A stretch of DNA of 64,000 bases from the human T2T-CHM13v2.0 reference genome, Homo sapiens. Both the position numbers and the translations under genes were made by a program. Numbering within the stretch: position 1 is the first letter of the stretch; every line of letters begins with the position of its first letter. The DNA lies in assembly GCF_009914755.1 (NCBI RefSeq), contig NC_060944.1. The stretch is one strand, 5' to 3'. The notes under the pieces are model-generated. The model was given only the letters and a program-made list of their open reading frames with translations, was not told the DNA's origin and ran no database searches. This document shows, in pieces, positions 4,781 to 34,849 of this stretch.

Positions 4781-5876
4781 AAAATAAACATTTAAGTAAA
4801 AAAAAAAAGAAAAAAATCTGAGTCATTTTAAAGAAAAGTATGAAACAAATGGTAGACCAGATGAGATGGTCAAGGTCACAGAGGGAGCCTCAGAATGCAT
4901 GAAGTTTGGGAACCCTGGGCAAGGGCCCTCCTTAGCCCCTGGCAAGGTCACTCCGGATGGTGTGGGTCTTACCAGCCTCTCCTCATCCTGGCCTTGTTTT
5001 AGTCGCCAGGGCCTGGGTGGCAGATTCTTGAGTCTCTGGGATCTTTGCCCTCCCCTCTGCTTCTCCCTCTTTCTCTCCTTGTTCCTCCTTCTCCTTCTTC
5101 ACTGATCAAGCTCAAGAAGCACCCAGCAGGTCCACCGCAGACCCCTCCCATCCCATCTTGCTTTGAGGCTTTCCTCATGGGACAGGGTTGGCCTGTCCTG
5201 ATTGTGGAGTCTCCACTTCCCCACTCAACCCCGCTTGCATCTTCCTTCATCTGCCCAGTGCACCGAGGCTGCCCATCAGAGTCACCTGAGGGGCTCTTAG
5301 GAGATGCCCCGGCCTAACCGCCTGCCAGTTGAGTCAGAATCCCTGGTGGAGGGACATCCTAACAACTCTCTCCTTCAAGGAGCCTGGCCTGACGGGAGGA
5401 GTGTTTCCCTGTCCCTGTCGCCCAGGGGTTCATTTTCGGGCGGATGAACAATGGCTGCAGAGCATAGAAGCCCAGCTCCACTTCCCTGAAGGACCCAGGT
5501 TCCTTCCACATTTCTGCTCGGTCACCCTCAGTGTGGTGTCTTTCAGTTGCTTCATGGTCACGAAGTGGCTGCGGCTGCTCAGAGGCTCCTGACATCACAG
5601 CAGCTGCACCAGCAGGACAGCAGGGAGAGGGCTTGCATCTCAGTGGCTAAAACTGGGTCACATGGCTGCCGCCAGCTGCAAGGAGGCTGAAAGGCAAGTC
5701 TCGGGCAGAGGGCAGTGGGATGCCTATGATTAGGCCAGTCCTGATTCATCCCTAGGGCTAGGCATGTGGCTGGCCCAACAGAACTGCTATTTTGGTAGCA
5801 AAGGAAGAAATAAGAAACAGCTTTTGAGAGTGCAGCCAAGAGTAAGTGTGACAAGGAAACATAAATATCATGTGCC

Positions 5877-7260: not shown

Positions 7261-10200
7261 AGCAGAAGGTGTTGCCCAGGCACTGGCAGGAGGTGGGGCC
7301 AGGCCGCACACTGGGCACTAGTTGCTATTTGCCTTCCTCTCCATGGCCCCGCCTGGTGTGGGCAGAGGTGGCATGGGGCCAGGCGGGTGGTGGGGAGGGC
7401 ACCTGGCTGTCCTCTCTTCTCTCCCTGAGCTCCTGGTGGTGCTGGCCAGCAACTAGTTTGCCCAGAATTGAGGGCTTTCCTGGGAAGCCTGACTTTCAGT
7501 TCTAAAACTGGGAAGGTCCCGGGCAAAGCTGGGTGAGTTGGTCACCATGGCAGCAGAAAACCTGAGCGGGATGGGGGTGGGGCAGTAGAAGGGACAGCAG
7601 GGAGTCAGGGCCAGGATCAGCCACCCGGGACAATGTGCTGCCCCTCCAGCACCAGACAGAACCGAGGGAGGATCCCTGTCCCCCTCCCACATCACTGATT
7701 CTGGGAGCCTTAGTTTCCATTTTGGTAAACTGATGCTAGAGATTCCCCGCCTCACAGGGATGAGGGATGGGGAACTGGGTGAGGAAATGAGCATAGAGCA
7801 CTTAGCAGATGCAGACATGTGATTCATGGGGGATCACATTATTAGGTCTCCGGCTTCAAACCCAGCTTCCCGCTGCTCAGAATAAAATGTGACACCCCAC
7901 AGACCCTGGAAGCACCTGCGATCTCAGACCGAATCTCCCCAACTCCACTGCTCACTCTGCTCCAGCCCTGTGGGCCTCCTGGCTGCCTGAGATTGGGCCA
8001 GGCCTCGCCCTACCCCAGGGCCTTTGCACACGCTGTTTCCTCTGCCTGGAGCACCATGCTCTTCCCCCTCTCATCTTTGGGCCTCAGCTTCAAGGTCACT
8101 ACACAGAGAGGCCTTCTTTGTCCCTCTTATTTGAAGGAATATCTGTCTCCTTGGGGAACAGTCATCTCTTGGCCGGTTGAGTGGCTGCCCTGGGCCTGGT
8201 ATGGTGCCCCACCCAGATCAAAGCTCAGGATGTGGTCGTGGAGTGGAAGAATAAATGAATATTGACCTGTGGAGGTCCCAATGGGCTGGAGAAAGAGCCC
8301 AGTGTCTTAAATCTCTTTCCTCCTCTGAGCCTCGATTTCCTCATCTGTCAGCAGGCATGAGAGGAGCATCTGAGTCCTTGGTCTCTGTGAGGCATGAATG
8401 AGGGGACAGAGATGAAGTCTGTTCAGTGCACTTGGCCAGCAGCAGGACTCGGGGCCTGGCAGCTCCCCTGATGGCACCCTGGGGGCACTCCTCCCCACTG
8501 TTTCCTCCCTGAGGCCTGAGGACCCCATGGGCGGTGGGTGCTGCTCCACGCTCCACACAGACCAGGAAGCCAAGCTTGGGGCCACCCCCACTGCCTTCTC
8601 CCGGGCACCACTGCCCACGGCTGGCCTCTCCTCAGGCCACAGGTCTGGCCTGGCTGCCCGAACTCTCAGCCTGGAGGCAGCTGAAGCGTCACATGCCCTT
8701 GGCCAGCCGTCTCCGGGGGGGCGGGTTCCCCTCGGGAGACTTCAGCACATTGTCAAAGCTGTCAAACAATTTCCCTGCCAGGTTTTTGCAGGAATCCAAG
8801 GCCTCGCTCCCAATGCCAAACACCCTCTTAAGACGATATCTCCGGGGCCTGCAGGCCTGCTCAGCGGCGCTGCCTCTCCTCGGCCTTATATAGTCAAAAG
8901 CCGGGGAATCCCTGTCCCACCCTGGGCTGGGATCTGATGGAAGCTGCCACAGCCTTGGCCTGACCCCGGGATCTCCCGCCTCCAAATCGGCCATCTCTGG
9001 CCAAGGGGCCGGGTGAGAGGCCTGGCATGCGCACAGGCCTGCGCGGGGCTCTGGGTGTCCCATCAGCTGGCAGCTGGAGCGGCCAGGCCAGCACAGGCTC
9101 TTACCAAATAAGGCCTGGGCAGCTGGGCTTGGCCAGGCTCAGACGGCGGCAGCTGGGCCAGCAGTAGCAGGCCTGCCTGTCTCCTCCTCCCGCACTGCCC
9201 TGCCTGCCCAGCAAAGACTCTGCAGACTGTGGTCCCCTCGACTCAAGGGAGAGCTCCACCCTAAGAAGCCTGGGTAGACGGTCCCGGATCCCCTGCCAGA
9301 CGCGCTGCCATGAGGAACCTCTGGCAAATTTCCATTGGGAACCTTGAGGGAAGGCAAGGTGGAGAAACATTCCTAGGACTCCCGCTGCTGCAACGGGAGC
9401 CCCGAGCCAGGCCAAGAAATGACCTGTCCCTCCCCCAGGACCCCGCTCCCACTCCTGCATCCCCCAGGGTGTTCCGATTTGGATGTTGCTTGTCCCACCA
9501 GTCAGCCCCTTCCTGGTGCCTGGTCTTTGGGGCCAAAGGGCAAGGCTGGCCAAGCGGTTTGGGAAGCGGGCCCGGGCTCAGGAGCACACTGAGGGCCCTT
9601 GGGCAGTGACCTGCCCTCCAACTGTGGCTATGATGAGGAAGGCGCATGCGTGCTGGTTGAGGAGGGAAGACCCCCATGACCATGAGCCAGTGTGGGCAGA
9701 GGAATGGGCAGGGGGAGGGGCAGGGGGCAGGTCCTCCCTTAGGAGCCACTACGGGGCATGAGGCTCCTGTGTCTGCTCGCCTTGGTTCCAGCCAGCAGCT
9801 TTGGCTCTTGGAGCCTCAGTTTTGCTATCCTTAAAATGGGTGTGATACAAACGCTATCTCAGGGTGGCAGCGGGAGTTCAAGGGGACAAGATGCACACCT
9901 CTCAGGGCCCTGCAGGGAGTTCCTGGAAGATTGACAGCAGGGCGAGGGAGGGATCTCTCCTTTCCTCGGAGATGGGGGAGGCAAGGGCTCTCTTTCTGTC
10001 CCTGACACCCCCTCCTCAGCTCCTCCTGCCCTCCCTGCTGTCTCATTATCTTAGGTGTGATGGGGGCATGGTGAGGCCTCCCAGCCACTCCCAGTGCTGG
10101 AAGTGCAGGCGTGGGGTGACCAGCTATTGCACATGTGACTGCATGGCTGTGTGTGTACGCATGTCCCTCCCAACCCCTATTAGCACAACCATGGGAACGT

Positions 10201-10344
10201 GACCGTGCAGCCCAACAGCCAGGGCGCGGGATACTCGAGAGGGTGGCCCCGGCCTGGGGATGTCTGTGGTTCTGCTGCTGCTCATTTCTGAAGCCCCTTC
10301 ATGAGTTCTGGGACTCCTGGGGGGATGGGGCCCACTTATGAGTC

Positions 10345-10513
10345 CCTCAGAGGCATTCAGTGCAAAGTAAAAATGTGGCCCCCCCTCCAAACGTTCAAAA
10401 ACGACGAAGACTTTTAAGACGACAACAGCAGAGCATTAAACCAACAGGCGGCCCTTCTGAGTGTGAGGGTCCCTCTGCGACTGCACAGGTCACACCCCAT
10501 GCAGCCGGCCCTG
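10345..10513. mobile_element. MER91-like remnant (opposite orientation)
   Basis: CAGTGCAAAGTAAAAATG..CAGCAGAGCATTAAACCAA..GGCCCTTCTGAGTGTG..CCCCATGCAGCCGGCCCTG. Confidence 0.65.
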
Positions 10514-12011
10514 TCCCCTCTGCCCCTCTGCAGCTCAGGTGGGCGGGGCCTGACCACTCCAGCCTGGTCACTCCAGCCTGGCCTTAGACTCTGAGGTGAG
10601 TGGTGCCAGGACCTGCCGGTCAGCCTGGATTCATCATAGCCTCTGTTGTCCAGTAGGCTTGGCAAGAAGGGTCTGTGGAAGTTTATAAAAGTGACACCCC
10701 CCAGCCCCCAACCTGGGGAGCAGCCAGGAGCCCTATGTCAGAATGTGCGGCCCCTAATGAAAGTGCTCTTCCAGCCACTCTATTTAAGCCAGGTGAGTTT
10801 GTTCTCAGGGACTGGAGGCCGGCAAGGTAATGCAGCTGTTTTTAGCGTTTTAGCAGGAGGCAGGTGCTGGCCAGGACGCCTGTGACGCTGTGGGTGACGA
10901 TGGCCATGACCCGGACACATACAGGTTGGGCAACCTGGGCAGAGCTGGTGTGCCTGGAGGTGGGGCGGGGGGGGTGCCTGGAAGACTGGTGTGGCCTGGA
11001 TGTCCTGAGAGCGCCAGAACCTCTCCTTGGGGCTCCCTGGGTGGCTACCACCTTTGACTCTTGCCCTAGGGGCACACACTGCCACCTTTCCAGAAAGTTC
11101 TCTGGGATCTACAGAAACTGACCACCCATCCAGGTGCTTGAACGTGTCAACTGGTAACTTGCAGCTGTTCTGTTGGAACCTCTGAGATTCCAAGCAGAAT
11201 TGCTCAGAACCTTCCGGATGCCCCACATGACATCCGCTCCCTCAGGGATAGACAGGGTTCGGCTGCTCATCGGGGTCTCCCAGAGCCTGGAACAGCGCTG
11301 TCCTAGAAGCCGTGAACAACCATCCTGCAAAGCTGGAGAAGCAGGGCATTTCCCCGCTGACACGCTCAGGACCAGGAGCTGGTGTGCGTCAAAGTCAGCA
11401 CCAAGGCCGGTCCATGGCCTGTGAAATACTCGTCCCTCAAGATTGCATTTCAATGGAAAGACTGGCATTTCCCATTCATTCACCTATTTTTTGATGGAGG
11501 AAAAAGGTCTTTCTGAGTGGGGTGGGGTGCTCTGCTGCTTGGGGTGGTCCCCTCATCTTCCTTGCATAACCCACATCTCCAGTGTATCTTGTGCCTTTGC
11601 AGTTTCTCTTTCTTTGAAATGGAAGAGAGAAAGAATATGCTCCCAGAGACGGTAACTGGAGAGCTTCGGAGCAGACTTTTATACTCTAAAGTAAACTTGT
11701 CCTTTTCATTAATTAACTAACAGAGATTTATTTGGTGTGGACCTCACGCCACAGCCTGTGCTGGATGCTGAGAACAGAGGAAAAATGAGCCCAGGGAAAT
11801 TGTGCCTGAGTGCAGCTAGGTCAGTTTTCTGTTTTACAAATGCAGGAACCAAGGCTCAGAGAGGGTGTGTGAATCACCTAAGGCCACACAGCGCCTGTGT
11901 GACAGGCTTTGGCCTGTAAGGGGAAAGCCGGCTAGAAGAGATGAGAAAATGGGGTGTCATTCACCAGCAAAACTGGGTTCAAATCCGCCTCTGGGACCTT
12001 GGGTAGGACCG

Positions 12012-12122
12012 GCCTGCCAAACACAAATGCATATCTGATTGTTCCCCTACCCCATTTTGTCTGTGTTATCTTATGTAAAATGCAGATTCCCCCATCCTTC
12101 CTTTATCCCTTTTGTTTATGTG
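12012..12122 (+). repeat. Short MER41-family fragment that is an inverted copy of 14490-14600
   Basis: 12028-12122 is the reverse complement of 14490-14584 with 1 mismatch in 95 bp. Confidence 0.9.
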
Positions 12123-16460: not shown

Positions 16461-17299
16461 CACACTTCTACATGCATGCTGCTTCTTGCAATCTCACACA
16501 CTCACACACACATGCACATGCCACTCCAGCACACCCACACATGCACACACACACACACCCCTCTCCTGAGCCACCCTGGGCCGCAACTCACCTGGCTTGA
16601 ATTTTGCTTTCCTCAGTTGACCCTGGCCCTGCAGATTGAGAGGCTGCACAGAGTTGAGGCCGGAGACAAGAGACTTATTTTTCACCTGGCTCAGCCACCA
16701 GGTCTCTTGCTGTCTCTGGGCCTTATTCCCCTAACAAAAACAACAGTCCACATTTATTGAGGATGCTGCGGATACAGTCTTATCTAAGACTCACAGCAGG
16801 CTCGCGGGAAATGGAGGCTCGGGTAGGGAAAACAGCCTGTCCAAGGTCACTCAAGCAGTAACCAGAAGACCTAGGGTTTGAACCCTGACTGTGGAACTCT
16901 AGCTACTTTGCTGTACGATTTCCCAGCCCACTTCATTCTCCCAATGAGGGCATGCTGTTATAATCCCATTTCACAGGCAAGGAAGCTGAGGCTGGTAGCG
17001 TGCAATAGTGCCTCGCACTGGACTTCTCTCCCTCCCTTGCTCACAGTGGGTTTCTTCCTGCCCAGGGCCCTGGCCCGCTTTTTTCTCTCTGCCTCCCTAC
17101 TTTGCCAAGTTCATTTCTCTTCTTCCTCTTGGTCTTACCCCAAATGCCATTTCTTCAGGAAGGCTTCTCTTACCCCCAAACTAGACCATACTCTCGCTTG
17201 AGGCTTTGACTGTGTGTTTTCTGTTTGCTAGTATCACACGTGACCCCCAGTGCCATGGCCTGAAGTACCTCTTGATTAGTTCACCTGCTCCTTAAGTCA

Positions 17300-31547: not shown

Positions 31548-31933
31548 GGCACCATAAATTGCTATTATTATTCTTATTCCACTTGTCCTTCAACCGAAGT
31601 GCACATCCCCATCTCAGCTGAGTGTAGCACAGCTGGGCTGTGTGCAAATTCCCCGTGACCAATGACAGTGCAATGTTAACATCTTCCTACACTCAGGGGC
31701 CTCTGGCTCTGCCGGCTGCCTTCCTGCAGGCCCTGTCCCTGGCGGGTGTAGCGCCCCCATCGCTACCTCCCTTGCTACATGATCTTTGAGGAAACTTTTC
31801 TGACATCCTGCAATCTGCCTTGACCAATTTCCTGGATGAAATTAGACCTCGTCACAAACATTGAACCATGCAGCTGCCTGAGTTCCTGGAGGCTGTGCCT
31901 CCCCCACTGGGTGTTTAGAAAACCGTCAGGCTC

Positions 31934-32238
<305 letters not shown>

Positions 32239-32493
32239 TCAGGCTGAAGCGGGGGAGGCTGGCGGAATGCTCTGGTGTGTGTCCTGGGAACTAAGTCCCG
32301 GGGACTTCCTAGGCACAGCCTCCAGTTCACACAGGCAGGAGAAACCAGAGGGTACAAAAGAATGTTTCGTGTCTTTTGGGGTGAATTTGGCTAAAAGTGA
32401 GTCCTCAGGGGAGATGCTAGTGGGGAAGAGACCAGGGTTAAGAACTTATCTGAGGGCAACAGAGCTGCCGCAAAGCTCGCTCCACTGAGTACT

Positions 32494-32712
32494 AGCCACT
32501 GACCTTGAGCAAGCTACTGACCTTGAGCGAGTCACTGACCTTGAGTGAGCCACTGACCTTGAGCGAGCCACTGACCTTGAGCGAGCCATTGACCTTGAGC
32601 GTGTCACTGACCTTGGGCGAGCCATTGACCTCGAGCGAGCCACTGACCTTGAGTGAGCTATTGACCTTGAGTGAGCCATTGACCTTGAGCACGTCACTGA
32701 CCTTGAGCGAGC
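32494..32712. repeat. 18-bp minisatellite (about 12 units, consensus GAGCCACTGACCTTGAGC) inside a MIR
   Basis: TGACCT recurs at 32500, 32518, ... 32698 with an exact 18-bp period. MIR flanks are visible on both sides (TACTAGC.. upstream; TTCATCTGCAGAAGGGGATAATAATGGTAC downstream). Confidence 0.95.
32500..32706 (-). promoter_or_regulatory. Candidate homotypic ERR/NR5A nuclear-receptor site cluster
   Basis: 10 x TCAAGGTCA, 1 x CCAAGGTCA and 1 x TCGAGGTCA on the minus strand. Function is inferred from motifs only. Confidence 0.5.
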
Positions 32713-34849
32713 AAGCCACCTGCCTCTCCAAGCCTCCCTGTGTTCATCTGCAGAAGGGGATAATAATGGTACTGGTAGCACAGGGTTGTTGGGAAGTGCA
32801 AGAGGGATGATGCTGACATTCTATGGAGCACTGTGTGTTGGTGCCGTCCCAGCACCCACTGGAATTGTGCAATACATCACGCTGGACATGAAGGGAAGGC
32901 AGCCTAGCATGCACCACCTCTGGCTGACTTGCTGTACTACAGAGGCACCTCCTGGGACTACCACTGGGGTAGTTTAGGGTGAAATCACCCAGACCAGGCA
33001 CTAGCTCTCCTGGAGGAATCCACCGCTTTCCAATCCAGAGAGCGACTTGGCATAGCCCGACTCCTTCCTGCTGCCCTCCAGACCATGCGCAGGTCCTTTG
33101 GGTTCTAAATACTAGGCATCGGAGGCTGAAGTTTCCCGGGTTGACCAACCCTGGCTCCTTATCTCTCCTATGCCCATGGCCAAATCCTCTGCTCTATATT
33201 TTCAGTTGGTTTCTTGTGCCCAGGCCTCCTGGTCTGGATCTCCTTCCTTCCTGGCCCAGACTCTCCAAAGCTCACATTCTCATCTCCAAAATGGTGCAGG
33301 GTTGCCATGAGGATTGTGTTCCGGAAGTCCTTCTTTGCTTGCTTGGGGTGTGGATGTAGGAAGGGTCCTACTGGCATGAGTGAGTGGTCCACTACTGCTA
33401 CCCAGGCCAGGCAAGGACTTCCCTGCCCCACCAGGTCACGGTGAGAATGGGTGTCAGCCGCTCATTGGCAAATGCGTGGGATCTCCATACTGGACAGGGC
33501 TGGGGAGCTCTCCAGCTGCCTCGCTGAACACCATTGCCTGGGTCCCGCCTGCCTCAGTAATCCCTTTGCCTAAGCCTTTCGCTCTGAAACACTTTGCCTG
33601 AACATCTTCCTGGATTTCCCAGCCCACCCTGATCCTCTCATTCCTCAAACCCATTTCAGGATTCACCTTCAATGACCAGCCCAGCGCCTGGCAGATTTTC
33701 CCTGCATCTTTGTGGCTTCCATGGCATTGATTTGAACTTGGCTTTGCTTCCCAGGTGACATAACGAGTATTTTTAAGACCCCCAAGAAGCTTCTGTGTAC
33801 ATTATTTAATCCTCACAATATCCCTGCCAGGTGGTGGTGTGAGTGTTACTGGCCCCATTTCACAGGGGGAAACTGAGGTCCCCAGAACTTAGGCTACCGC
33901 CCAAAGCCATGCAGCCAGTAGGGGGCAGAAGTGGGGTTTTGACCCCGTGCAGTGGCTATTCAGGGCCTGGGTTTCTTTCTGGAGTCCTTTCTGGAGCCTT
34001 TCTAGAGCCCTTCAAGCAGAGCAGGGGCTATTTAAGGTGAGTGAGGCCCTTCCCTCAGGCACAGAAAGCTGATCATCAAGATAAATACCATTTTCATGCC
34101 AAATGAATGCAAAAAATCCATGATGTACAAAATATCGAAATGTTAAAGTCAGGATGCAACCCTGCCCTTGCCCCACCCGCCTGCCTTACTTGCCCTCCCT
34201 ACATCCAGCCCTGGCTCCAGTAAAAAAATATTTACAAAAACAGATGACCAGCCTGCGGGCCGTCGTTGAACGATTTGAATTTTCATATAAAGGTTTGAGG
34301 TGTGTGCTCTTTCCCCACCACCTGCACCCCACGTTTTTATTATGAAAACTTTCAAGCATGCAAAAAAAGAGGAGAGAAGAGTTGGATAAACACCTGTCTC
34401 CTCTGTCCTTTTTATCCCCCACCCTGGATCCTAAGCACCTGAAGGCACGACATAGTACCTTAGACTCATACTGCTCCAAGCAGGGGCTTGGAGTGTAGCG
34501 GTATGAATACTTTGTACCAAGGTGGCATTTCTGGTCCACCCTGACCCTCTGGGTCAGAATCTGCATTTCTAAGATTCCCTGGCATTCTCCGGCACAGTCA
34601 GGTTTGAGAAGTGTTGGCATGGTGCATGCTTTGCCAGGAGACGGGACCTGGGTCCACATCCTAGTCCCGGCACGTTTTGAGTGTTCAGTTTGGCAGTGAT
34701 TGTTAGGTGCTGGACCACCTGCTAAGTGTTTCCCATACAAAACTCATTTAATCCTAAATAACAACTCAGTGGCTCTCAACCTGTGGTTCTGCTCTCCAGG
34801 GGACACTTGGCAATGTCTGGAGACATTTTTGGTTGTCAGTCTGGGGGCG

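What the first reader, a model, noticed from the sequence alone, without database searches (positions are those of the whole stretch)
32494..32712. MIR-born minisatellite forming a 12-site array of ERR/NR5A response elements
Seen: 12 units at an exact 18-bp period. On the minus strand ten read TCAAGGTCA, one CCAAGGTCA (32608-32616) and one TCGAGGTCA (32626-32634). The unit corresponds to the MIR core 18-mer TGACCTTGGGCAAGTTAC, and MIR sequence continues on both sides, so a single MIR site was amplified in place. Known: TCAAGGTCA is the extended half-site bound by ESRRA/B/G, and YCAAGGTCA is bound by NR5A1 (SF-1) and NR5A2 (LRH-1). Inference: this could be a VNTR-tunable homotypic enhancer whose strength depends on copy number. 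If the locus is 20q13.3, candidate targets include CTCFL (germline), PCK1 (a metabolic ERR-regulated gene) and RBM38. I do not know whether it has been described.
Basis: partly seen in the sequence, partly recalled or inferred. Interest (0 to 1): 0.8.

Follow-up and report, generated by a model that had tools for sequence, protein, structure and literature searches.

The report
MIR-born minisatellite of twelve ERR-type sites
An ancient MIR repeat between RBM38 and CTCFL had an 18-base piece of its core copied twelve times in a row, which lined up twelve near-perfect docking sites for ERR-type nuclear receptors; the structure is real and tidy, but whether it regulates any gene is untested.

Summary
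There are 12.2 head-to-tail 18-bp units with no indels at 32494-32712. On the minus strand they carry 10 TCAAGGTCA, 1 CCAAGGTCA and 1 TCGAGGTCA.

The MIR origin is supported on both flanks. The consensus of that profile contains the published MIR-core ZNF768 motif.

The array is single-locus. It is not the only tandem array of this motif. Six others turned up, none MIR-derived, and one on chr18 has 34 exact sites.

All 12 units carry T at motif position 7, the version that favours ESRRB over NR5A2 in mouse ESC.

The motif half of the unit varies far less than the linker half (2/108 against 18/108 cells). Dispersed MIR copies show no such asymmetry. Counted as independent events, the signal is weak (P 0.03 to 0.14).

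Each ingredient is already known separately. These are TE-born minisatellites, ESRRB binding at MIR cores, and a polymorphic ERRE repeat (ESRRA23). Occupancy, enhancer activity, copy-number variation and target genes could not be tested here.

Verdict: a real new member of known kinds, function open, moderate interest.

The parts
32494..32712 (-). 18-bp minisatellite, 12.2 units. Each unit is a 9-bp extended nuclear-receptor half-site (read on the minus strand) plus a 9-bp linker. Plus-strand unit consensus: TGACCTTGAGCGAGCCAC.
   Evidence: TRF; unit table; single locus in the genome.
32500..32706 (-). Ten exact TCAAGGTCA sites. Their plus-strand starts are 32500, 32518, 32536, 32554, 32572, 32590, 32644, 32662, 32680 and 32698.
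32608..32616 (-). CCAAGGTCA variant in unit 7. This is the MIR consensus state, here most likely a back-change.
   Evidence: Unit 1 and the post-array remnant both carry the A state.
32626..32634 (-). TCGAGGTCA variant in unit 8. The AGGTCA hexamer is intact and the 5' extension is broken.
32420..32499 (+). Left part of the parent MIR copy, read antisense to the usual MIR orientation (that orientation is recalled). It aligns to family-profile positions about 61-132.
   Evidence: nhmmer puts 32476-32521 on profile 108-154, with E = 1 in the window and 0.0056 in a 651-nt target. Pairwise alignment gives 64 of 83 aligned bases identical, with many gaps. This flank is the weaker one.
32713..32833 (+). 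Right part of the same MIR copy. It resumes directly after the amplified segment.
   Evidence: nhmmer puts 32722-32833 on profile 154-263, with E = 1.1e-6 in the window and 5.4e-9 locally. 70 of 97 aligned bases are identical.
32494..32517 (+). 6-bp direct repeats AGCCAC (32494) and AGCTAC (32512), exactly 18 bp apart, with AGCCAC again at 32714. Inferred to be the seed for the first slippage duplication.
   Evidence: The mechanism itself is inferred.
31929..32234 (+). Neighbouring Alu with its A-rich tail, not part of the feature. It marks the upstream boundary of the MIR remnant.
   Evidence: Sequence read; masked stretch 31929-32168 in the hub note; A-rich repeat at 32214-32234. The name 'Alu' is recognised from recall.

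Best explanation
One old MIR SINE copy, about 25% diverged from its family consensus, first acquired a G-to-A change that turned the MIR-core CCAAGGTCA into the perfect ERR element TCAAGGTCA. An 18-bp segment of the core was then duplicated, most likely by replication slippage between two 6-bp direct repeats (AGCCAC / AGCYAC) that lie exactly 18 bp apart. The array grew stepwise to 12 units, probably tens of millions of years ago. The result is a single-locus minisatellite whose 12 receptor sites exist by descent from one site. As bare DNA it is a very high-avidity platform for proteins that read the extended half-site. ERRalpha/beta/gamma come first because position 7 is T in every unit; NR5A1/2 and GCNF come second. 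My committed reading is that these receptors occupy it opportunistically wherever its chromatin is open, but that it is neutral or only weakly regulatory, not a dedicated copy-number-tuned enhancer of PCK1, CTCFL or RBM38. Shown here: the structure, the MIR origin, the single-locus status and the motif identity. Inferred: the slippage seed, the age, receptor occupancy, and the lack of strong function.
For: Structure. Single locus: a 28-mer spanning two units matches, at up to 2 mismatches, only here (7 of 7 hits). A profile of 30 of those copies hits the window 45 times at E <= 10. It places the right flank at profile 154-263 (E 1.1e-6) and the left flank at 108-154 (weak), on the same strand and in order, with the 18-mer at 133-150. 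The profile consensus contains GCTGTGTG-N20-CCTCTCTG exactly at 127-162, which PMC6344866 describes as lying in the MIR core. The G-to-A upgrade is commonplace: the 15-mer with the array's state has 870 genomic hits, against 2,675 for the consensus state. Motif identity: TCAAGGTCA is the canonical Esrrb consensus, with T at base 7 favouring Esrrb and C favouring Nr5a2 (PMC8451941 passages). ESRRB binds MIR cores in mouse ESC (PMC12036290). Age and low turnover: units differ from their consensus in 20 of 216 cells, or 12 of 160 for inner units without the CpG columns. The flanks are 72-77% identical to the family consensus. Ordinary context: CpG observed/expected is 0.14-0.65 across 28-37 kb, with no other half-site cluster. 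The nearest protein-coding gene ends are 31 and 55 kb away.
Against: The motif half of the unit is much better kept than the linker half (2/108 against 18/108 cells, Fisher P = 0.0002). Dispersed MIR copies picked by an independent anchor show no such asymmetry (20/113 against 26/149, P = 1.0; only 12 of 41 copies fill all 18 columns). That pattern is what purifying selection on the receptor sites would produce, so it speaks against pure neutrality. Counted as distinct events it is 2 against 9 (P = 0.033). With the end units and CpG columns removed it is 2 against 5 (P = 0.14). So the signal is suggestive only. Ten perfect sites in 219 bp is also the design of synthetic ERR reporters (the term '3xERRE' occurs in 13 papers; listing only), so real enhancer activity is plausible. 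I had no chromatin, ChIP, primate or population data at all.
Confidence: 0.6

Rival explanations
1. One reading: the array is a working homotypic enhancer. ERRalpha/gamma with PGC-1, or ESRRB/NR5A2 in early embryo and germline, load cooperatively onto 10-12 sites. Output scales with unit number, so copy-number alleles tune a neighbouring gene (PCK1, RBM38, CTCFL or the adjacent lncRNA).
For: There are ten perfect canonical sites at a fixed pitch. The motif half is kept better than the linker, and dispersed MIRs lack that asymmetry. MIR cores are bona fide ESRRB-bound enhancers in mouse ESC (PMC12036290). Multimerised ERRE reporters are standard tools (listing only). A natural polymorphic ERRE repeat, ESRRA23, exists (its mechanism is recalled from Laganiere et al. 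2004, not read here).
Against: No occupancy, chromatin or expression evidence was obtainable. Units are 9% diverged with no indels, which is typical of a stable rather than hypervariable array, so 'tunable' is doubtful. The candidate genes are 31-96 kb away, and CTCFL and RBM38 present their 3' ends to the array. The selection signal drops to P = 0.03-0.14 when shared variants are counted once. Six other tandem arrays of the same motif exist, so such arrays arise without any evident need for function.
Confidence: 0.2
2. The array is a repressive or silenced platform. It would be read by GCNF/NR6A1, which recognises the same extended half-site and represses, or simply CpG-methylated and packed as a repeat, so that it is inert in most tissues.
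For: Each consensus unit carries a CpG next to the motif, and 3 of 12 units have the TG decay product at that column. CpG observed/expected in the array is 0.52. Both fit germline methylation. That GCNF binds this 9-mer is recalled knowledge. My search for it returned only two papers, and the one I opened mentioned GCNF only in its reference list.
Against: There is no direct evidence. 9 CpGs survive in 219 bp, so decay is incomplete.
Confidence: 0.12
3. The MIR core here acts through ZNF768, the zinc-finger protein known to bind MIR cores, and the receptor motifs are incidental.
For: ZNF768 binds GCTGTGTG-N20-CCTCTCTG in MIR cores (PMC6344866). That motif brackets exactly the segment amplified here.
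Against: Tested and not met. No bipartite match exists in 32471-32760, even allowing 2 mismatches per anchor and a 17-23 bp linker. No left-anchor match lies ahead of the array, and the array pushes that side of the core more than 200 bp from the right anchor. The paper reports that the vast majority of motif-containing peaks (83.5%) have a linker of exactly 20 bp.
Confidence: 0.02
4. It is an assembly artefact or a chance cluster.
For: None found.
Against: 0 of 100 shuffles reach the motif count. The period is exact with 0% indels, and unit-specific substitutions rule out a collapsed or stuttered read. The flanks are unique sequence.
Confidence: 0.01

Closest known systems
ESRRB-bound MIR-core enhancers (Cipta et al., Genome Biol 2025, PMC12036290; abstract and passages read)
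   Same: Same repeat family, same core segment, same receptor motif. The paper places the Esrrb motif at 86-97 of the MIR consensus inside the conserved core-SINE, with Nr5a2 the next most enriched motif.
   Different: Those are single sites in dispersed MIR copies, studied in mouse ESC. Here one human copy has multiplied the site twelve-fold in tandem, and no binding data exist for it in what I could see.
ESRRA23, the polymorphic 23-bp ERRE repeat in the human ESRRA promoter
   Same: A natural tandem repeat in which each unit carries an ERR element, and copy number is reported to change the response. The polymorphism and the ERRE consensus TNAAGGTCA are seen in PMC7084735.
   Different: ESRRA23 has only a few copies, sits in a promoter and is not MIR-derived. 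The copy range and mechanism are recalled from Laganiere et al. 2004, which I did not read. The present array has 12 units, is intergenic, and has unknown polymorphism.
Transposon-derived minisatellites (Ahmed and Liang 2012, PMC3389668; abstract and passages read)
   Same: A tandem array born by local duplication of a piece of a transposable element. That paper counts 7,276 such arrays, 23% of minisatellites and satellites.
   Different: That survey required units over 20 bp and at least 95% unit identity, so this 18-bp, 84%-match array falls outside it. It also finds younger elements more prone to this, whereas MIR is ancient. The word MIR does not occur in its main text.
Synthetic multimerised ERRE reporters (3xERRE-luciferase)
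   Same: Several ERR elements placed head-to-tail to give an ERR/PGC-1-responsive readout.
   Different: These are man-made with 3 copies. I saw only the search listing (13 papers hold the term).
Other genomic tandem arrays carrying TCAAGGTCA (chr18:80.195-80.197 Mb, chr19:59.248 Mb, chr6:92.913 Mb, chr2:29.437 Mb, chr22:49.796 Mb, chr13:25.869 Mb)
   Same: Minisatellites whose unit happens to include the same 9-mer. The chr18 array has 34 exact sites.
   Different: None has a MIR-family match at the array. Their periods are 17-38 bp. The chr20 array has the second-highest exact-site count and, at one site per 18 bp, about the tightest pitch.

Membership tests
MIR (mammalian-wide interspersed repeat) SINE remnant | Sequence on both sides of the array aligns in order and on one strand to a profile of the dispersed family. 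| tested here: met
   Right flank: profile 154-263, E 1.1e-6. Left flank: profile 108-154, weak (E 1 in the window, 0.0056 in a 651-nt target). Identity is 72% and 77%.
MIR (mammalian-wide interspersed repeat) SINE remnant | The family used for the profile is MIR and not some other repeat. | tested here: met
   The profile consensus holds GCTGTGTG-N20-CCTCTCTG exactly, which PMC6344866 places in the MIR core. No curated repeat library (Dfam) was available, so the subfamily was not determined.
Minisatellite / VNTR | Head-to-tail repeats of a 10-100 bp unit. | tested here: met
   Period 18, 12.2 copies, 0% indels.
Minisatellite / VNTR | Copy number varies between individuals (the 'V' in VNTR). 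| not testable with these tools
   Only one human assembly is held, and it has no relatives (header). 9% unit divergence suggests low turnover, which is an inference.
ERR response element (ERRE) | The sequence TNAAGGTCA. | tested here: met
   10 of 12 units fit. The consensus is as given in PMC7084735 and PMC8451941.
ERR response element (ERRE) | Bound by ERRalpha/beta/gamma and confers ERR/PGC-1 dependent transcription. | not testable with these tools
   No ChIP, chromatin or reporter data are accessible.
NR5A (SF-1 / LRH-1) response element | The sequence YCAAGGYCA, with C at position 7 preferred by Nr5a2. | tested here: inconclusive
   11 of 12 units fit the degenerate pattern (the pattern itself is recalled). 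All 12 have T at position 7, the version less preferred by Nr5a2 in mouse ESC.
Transcriptional enhancer | Open chromatin, H3K27ac/H3K4me1, activity in a reporter or perturbation assay. | not testable with these tools
   The hub note lists 25 RefSeq enhancer features in the window but names only six, and none of those overlaps the array. The other 19 were not shown.
ZNF768 binding site in a MIR core | Two 8-bp anchors separated by a linker of 20 +/- 3 bp. | tested here: not met
   No match in 32471-32760 at up to 2 mismatches per anchor.

The most novel reading that the evidence does not exclude
The array is a primate-born 'super-ERRE'. A single MIR-core receptor site was upgraded by one base change and then amplified twelve-fold. 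Its 9-bp motifs have since been held by selection while the linkers drifted. It works as a high-avidity ERR (or ESRRB/NR5A2) landing pad that wires a metabolic or germline neighbour (PCK1, RBM38, CTCFL or the adjacent lncRNA) to ERR/PGC-1 signalling, with residual copy-number alleles acting as an expression dial. That would be a clean natural example of enhancer birth by tandem amplification of one transposon-borne site.
Probability: 0.13. Interest if true: 0.65.

Novelty: new member of a known kind. Interest (0 to 1): 0.38.

Why it matters
If the array is bound and active, it would show a simple route to a strong enhancer: upgrade one transposon-borne site by a point change, then multiply it by slippage. 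It would also give a natural allelic series for testing how site number sets output for monomer-binding nuclear receptors, next to PCK1, a classic metabolic gene. If it is inert, it is a useful caution. Ten perfect consensus sites can arise and persist by descent alone, and at least six other tandem arrays of the same motif exist in the genome. Motif density by itself is then not evidence of function.

Tried and rejected
1. A DNA search of the genome with the right flank and a blastn of both flanks against the rest of the window found no convincing relatives. MIR copies are too diverged for that, so I switched to a profile built from copies of the 18-mer.

2. Recurrent MIR-core minisatellites: rejected. 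None of the six other TCAAGGTCA arrays has a family match at the array. A looser scan for three TGACCTTG at 16-20 bp pitch gave 16 hits against 7 for the control and added two loci, chr10 and a second chr22 site. I did not test those two for MIR flanks.

3. Hairpin or non-B DNA as a driver: rejected. The plus strand folds worse than shuffles (-13.5 against -19.75 +/- 3.04 kcal/mol, z = +2.06; 199 of 200 shuffles fold at least as well).

4. Coding potential: there is only a 77-aa ATG frame on the minus strand (32446-32679). That is a trivial consequence of an 18-bp period, and no gene is annotated there.

5. A CpG island or promoter: none.

6. A ZNF768 site: not met.

7. Literature on this locus: ten searches returned nothing that describes this array, a VNTR between RBM38 and CTCFL, or a MIR-derived ERRE array. 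Supplementary tables of VNTR or ChIP catalogues were not searched, because I had no hg19/hg38 coordinates for it.

Smit and Riggs 1995 (PMC306635) is not held.

I fetched 40 short stretches instead. Only 12 of the 41 copies span the whole 18-mer, so that control is small.

Full report
**1. What is there**

Window 32494-32712 (T2T-CHM13 chr20:59,242,494-59,242,712, from the window's place) is a clean minisatellite. It has period 18, 12.2 copies, 84% matches, no indels and TRF score 312.

In the register starting at 32500, every unit begins with the reverse complement of a nuclear-receptor extended half-site. Ten units read TCAAGGTCA. Unit 7 (32608-32616) reads CCAAGGTCA and unit 8 (32626-32634) reads TCGAGGTCA.

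The window holds 12 exact TCAAGGTCA against 0.87 expected, and 0 of 100 shuffles reach that number. Only two of the 12 lie outside the array. All 12 units keep AGGTCA, 10 of 12 fit TNAAGGTCA, and 11 of 12 fit YCAAGGYCA.

The genome has 41,703 exact sites against 27,354 for the reversed-pattern control. That density predicts 0.003 sites in 219 bp.

**2. Origin**

I built a profile from 30 of these copies with their flanks and scanned the window. It hits 45 places at E <= 10, so the family is everywhere.

At this locus the profile aligns as follows:
- The right flank, 32722-32833, aligns to profile 154-263 (E 1.1e-6 in the window, 5.4e-9 locally).
- The left flank, 32476-32521, aligns to profile 108-154 (weak: E 1 in the window, 0.0056 in a 651-nt target).
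- Both are on the same strand and in order, with the 18-mer at profile 133-150.

Pairwise alignment gives 64 of 83 (77%) identity on the left and 70 of 97 (72%) on the right.

I did not have to rely on memory to call the family MIR. Its consensus contains GCTGTGTG-N20-CCTCTCTG exactly, at 127-162. Rohrmoser et al. (PMC6344866, abstract and passages) give that motif as the ZNF768 site in the MIR core.

The left flank is the weaker half of that evidence.

**3. How it probably arose (inferred)**

The MIR consensus state is CCAAGGTCA. Unit 1 and the remnant after the last unit both carry the A that makes TCAAGGTCA. The point change therefore came before the amplification, and unit 7's C-form is most likely a back-change.

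That upgrade is common. The 15-mer with the array's state occurs 870 times in the genome, against 2,675 for the consensus state.

AGCCAC at 32494, AGCTAC at 32512 and AGCCAC at 32714 are 6-bp direct repeats spaced exactly one unit apart. This is the substrate required by the slipped-strand model for minisatellite initiation, summarised in PMC3389668.

The plus strand has no unusual self-structure (z = +2.06 against shuffles).

**4. Age (rough inference)**

Units differ from their consensus in 20 of 216 cells. For the inner units without the CpG columns the figure is 12 of 160. The parent MIR is 23-28% from its family consensus.

If MIRs predate the mammalian radiation, the array is perhaps a third as old as the parent copy. 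(That premise comes from the title of Smit and Riggs 1995, seen only in a reference list.) This means tens of millions of years, likely shared among catarrhine primates.

Of the 20 differences, 12 are C-to-T on the plus strand, and three sit at the unit's CpG. An old, interrupted array of this kind is expected to be fairly stable, which works against the 'VNTR dial' idea. I could not test polymorphism.

**5. Is it unique?**

As a sequence, yes. A two-unit 28-mer at up to 2 mismatches matches only here (7 of 7 hits).

As a kind, no. Three TCAAGGTCA sites within 5-30 bp gaps occur 32 times in the genome (control 6), at seven loci, and all seven are tandem repeats. The six other loci have periods of 17-38 bp:
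- The chr18 subtelomeric array holds 34 exact sites in the form AGGTCAAGGTCA.
- The chr19 and chr6 arrays hold 6 each.
- The chr2 array holds 5, the chr22 array 4, and the chr13 array 3.

None of the six has a MIR-family match at the array. The chr20 array is thus the only MIR-born one found. It ranks second by exact-site count and is among the tightest in pitch.

**6. Who would read it**

TCAAGGTCA is the canonical Esrrb consensus. In mouse ESC, base 7 discriminates between the two receptors: T favours Esrrb and C favours Nr5a2 (PMC8451941 passages). All 12 units have T, so the array is ERR-type first.

ERRE = TNAAGGTCA is stated in PMC7084735.

In mouse ESC, the Esrrb motif lies at 86-97 of the MIR consensus within the conserved core-SINE. 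Esrrb and then Nr5a2 are the top motifs at MIR enhancer loop anchors, and ESRRB occupies MIRs (PMC12036290, abstract and passages).

The ZNF768 bipartite site that normally brackets this segment is lost here.

GCNF/NR6A1 binding to the same 9-mer is recalled knowledge that I could not confirm in the library.

**7. The one sequence-level hint of function**

Variation among units is concentrated in the linker. The 9-bp motif half has 2 of 108 cells differing from consensus, and the linker half has 18 of 108 (Fisher P = 0.0002).

As a neutral control I took the first 41 genomic MIR copies that carry a 14-mer about 70 nt downstream of the core (2,780 hits against 35 for the control; sequences plus L048). 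Only 12 of the 41 fill all 18 columns. In the aligned cells the two halves differ equally from consensus: 20 of 113 (17.7%) against 26 of 149 (17.4%), P = 1.0. The motif half is therefore not intrinsically less mutable.

Cells in an array are not independent, however, because shared variants can be copies of one event:
- Counted as distinct states, the split is 2 against 9 (P = 0.033).
- Leaving out the two end units and the CpG columns, it is 2 against 5 (P = 0.14).

I take this as a suggestive sign of constraint on the receptor sites, not a demonstration of it.

**8. Context**

The array sits 1.6 kb past the end of the predicted lncRNA LOC105372688. It is 31 kb from the 3' end of CTCFL, 55 kb from the 3' end of RBM38, and 96 kb from the PCK1 start (hub annotation; distances).

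There is no CpG island between 28 and 37 kb (observed/expected 0.14-0.65) and no other half-site cluster. An Alu lies immediately upstream, and another MIR copy lies 1.1 kb downstream on the other strand.

The hub note names only 6 of 25 RefSeq enhancer features, and none of those overlaps the array. I could not see the rest.

**9. Verdict**

The structure and its MIR origin are real and neatly explained. The receptor-site identity is sound and leans towards ERR.

The functional claim (enhancer, copy-number tuning, target genes) is untested and cannot be tested with the tools at hand. I give about 0.2 to a working enhancer. I give about 0.6 to a largely neutral array that receptors may occupy opportunistically, and the remainder to a silenced or repressive state.

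Every ingredient has precedent:
- TE-born minisatellites (PMC3389668).
- ESRRB on MIR cores (PMC12036290).
- A polymorphic ERRE repeat, ESRRA23. Its existence is seen; its mechanism is recalled.
- Multimerised ERRE reporters (listing only).

Ten literature searches found no description of this locus. It is a new member of known kinds and a good, cheap candidate for a look in existing ChIP, ATAC and long-read data.

Noticed in passing
L074 (G000 chr18:80,194,800-80,198,300), array at about locus 728-2560: A subtelomeric 38-bp minisatellite (about 48 units, with 75- and 112-bp higher-order periods) carries 34 exact TCAAGGTCA, each as AGGTCAAGGTCA. That is a direct repeat of the half-site with no spacer, the DR0 arrangement (name recalled). 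It is the largest array of this motif found, and it is not MIR-derived.
   Followed up: partly
G000 chr1:2,787,832-2,788,008 (listed): Four exact TCAAGGTCA sites at a constant 56-bp spacing, which looks like another tandem array. The 5-30 bp gap pattern would have missed it, so arrays of this motif are more numerous than the seven loci counted.
   Followed up: no
L073 (chr19:59,247,400-59,249,200), L072 (chr6:92,911,800-92,913,600), L070 (chr2:29,435,800-29,437,400), L069 (chr22:49,794,800-49,796,400), L071 (chr13:25,868,400-25,870,000): Five further minisatellites (periods 37, 37, 17, 18 and 17 bp) with 6, 6, 5, 4 and 3 exact TCAAGGTCA. None has a MIR-family match at the array.
   Followed up: partly
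G000 chr10:17,404,703-17,404,770 and chr22:49,248,481-49,248,522: Two more short arrays of TGACCTTG at 17-20 bp pitch, without the full 9-mer. They were not tested for MIR flanks.
   Followed up: no
window 33799-33975 (-): A well-preserved second MIR copy (profile 68-238, E 5.1e-15) lies 1.1 kb downstream in the opposite orientation. The window as a whole gives 45 family hits at E <= 10.
   Followed up: no
window 32446-32679 (-): A 77-aa ATG-initiated open frame runs through the array. Five of six frames are stop-free across an 18-bp repeat of this composition (my reading of the unit), so it is not evidence of a gene.
   Followed up: yes
window 4870-4878 and 8090-8098 (+), 16841-16849 (+): These are the only other exact TCAAGGTCA (two) and CCAAGGTCA (one) sites in the 64-kb window. 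The one at 16841 lies inside a MIR-family hit (16918-16841). 8090 falls inside the RefSeq enhancer feature 7477-12060 named in the hub note.
   Followed up: no
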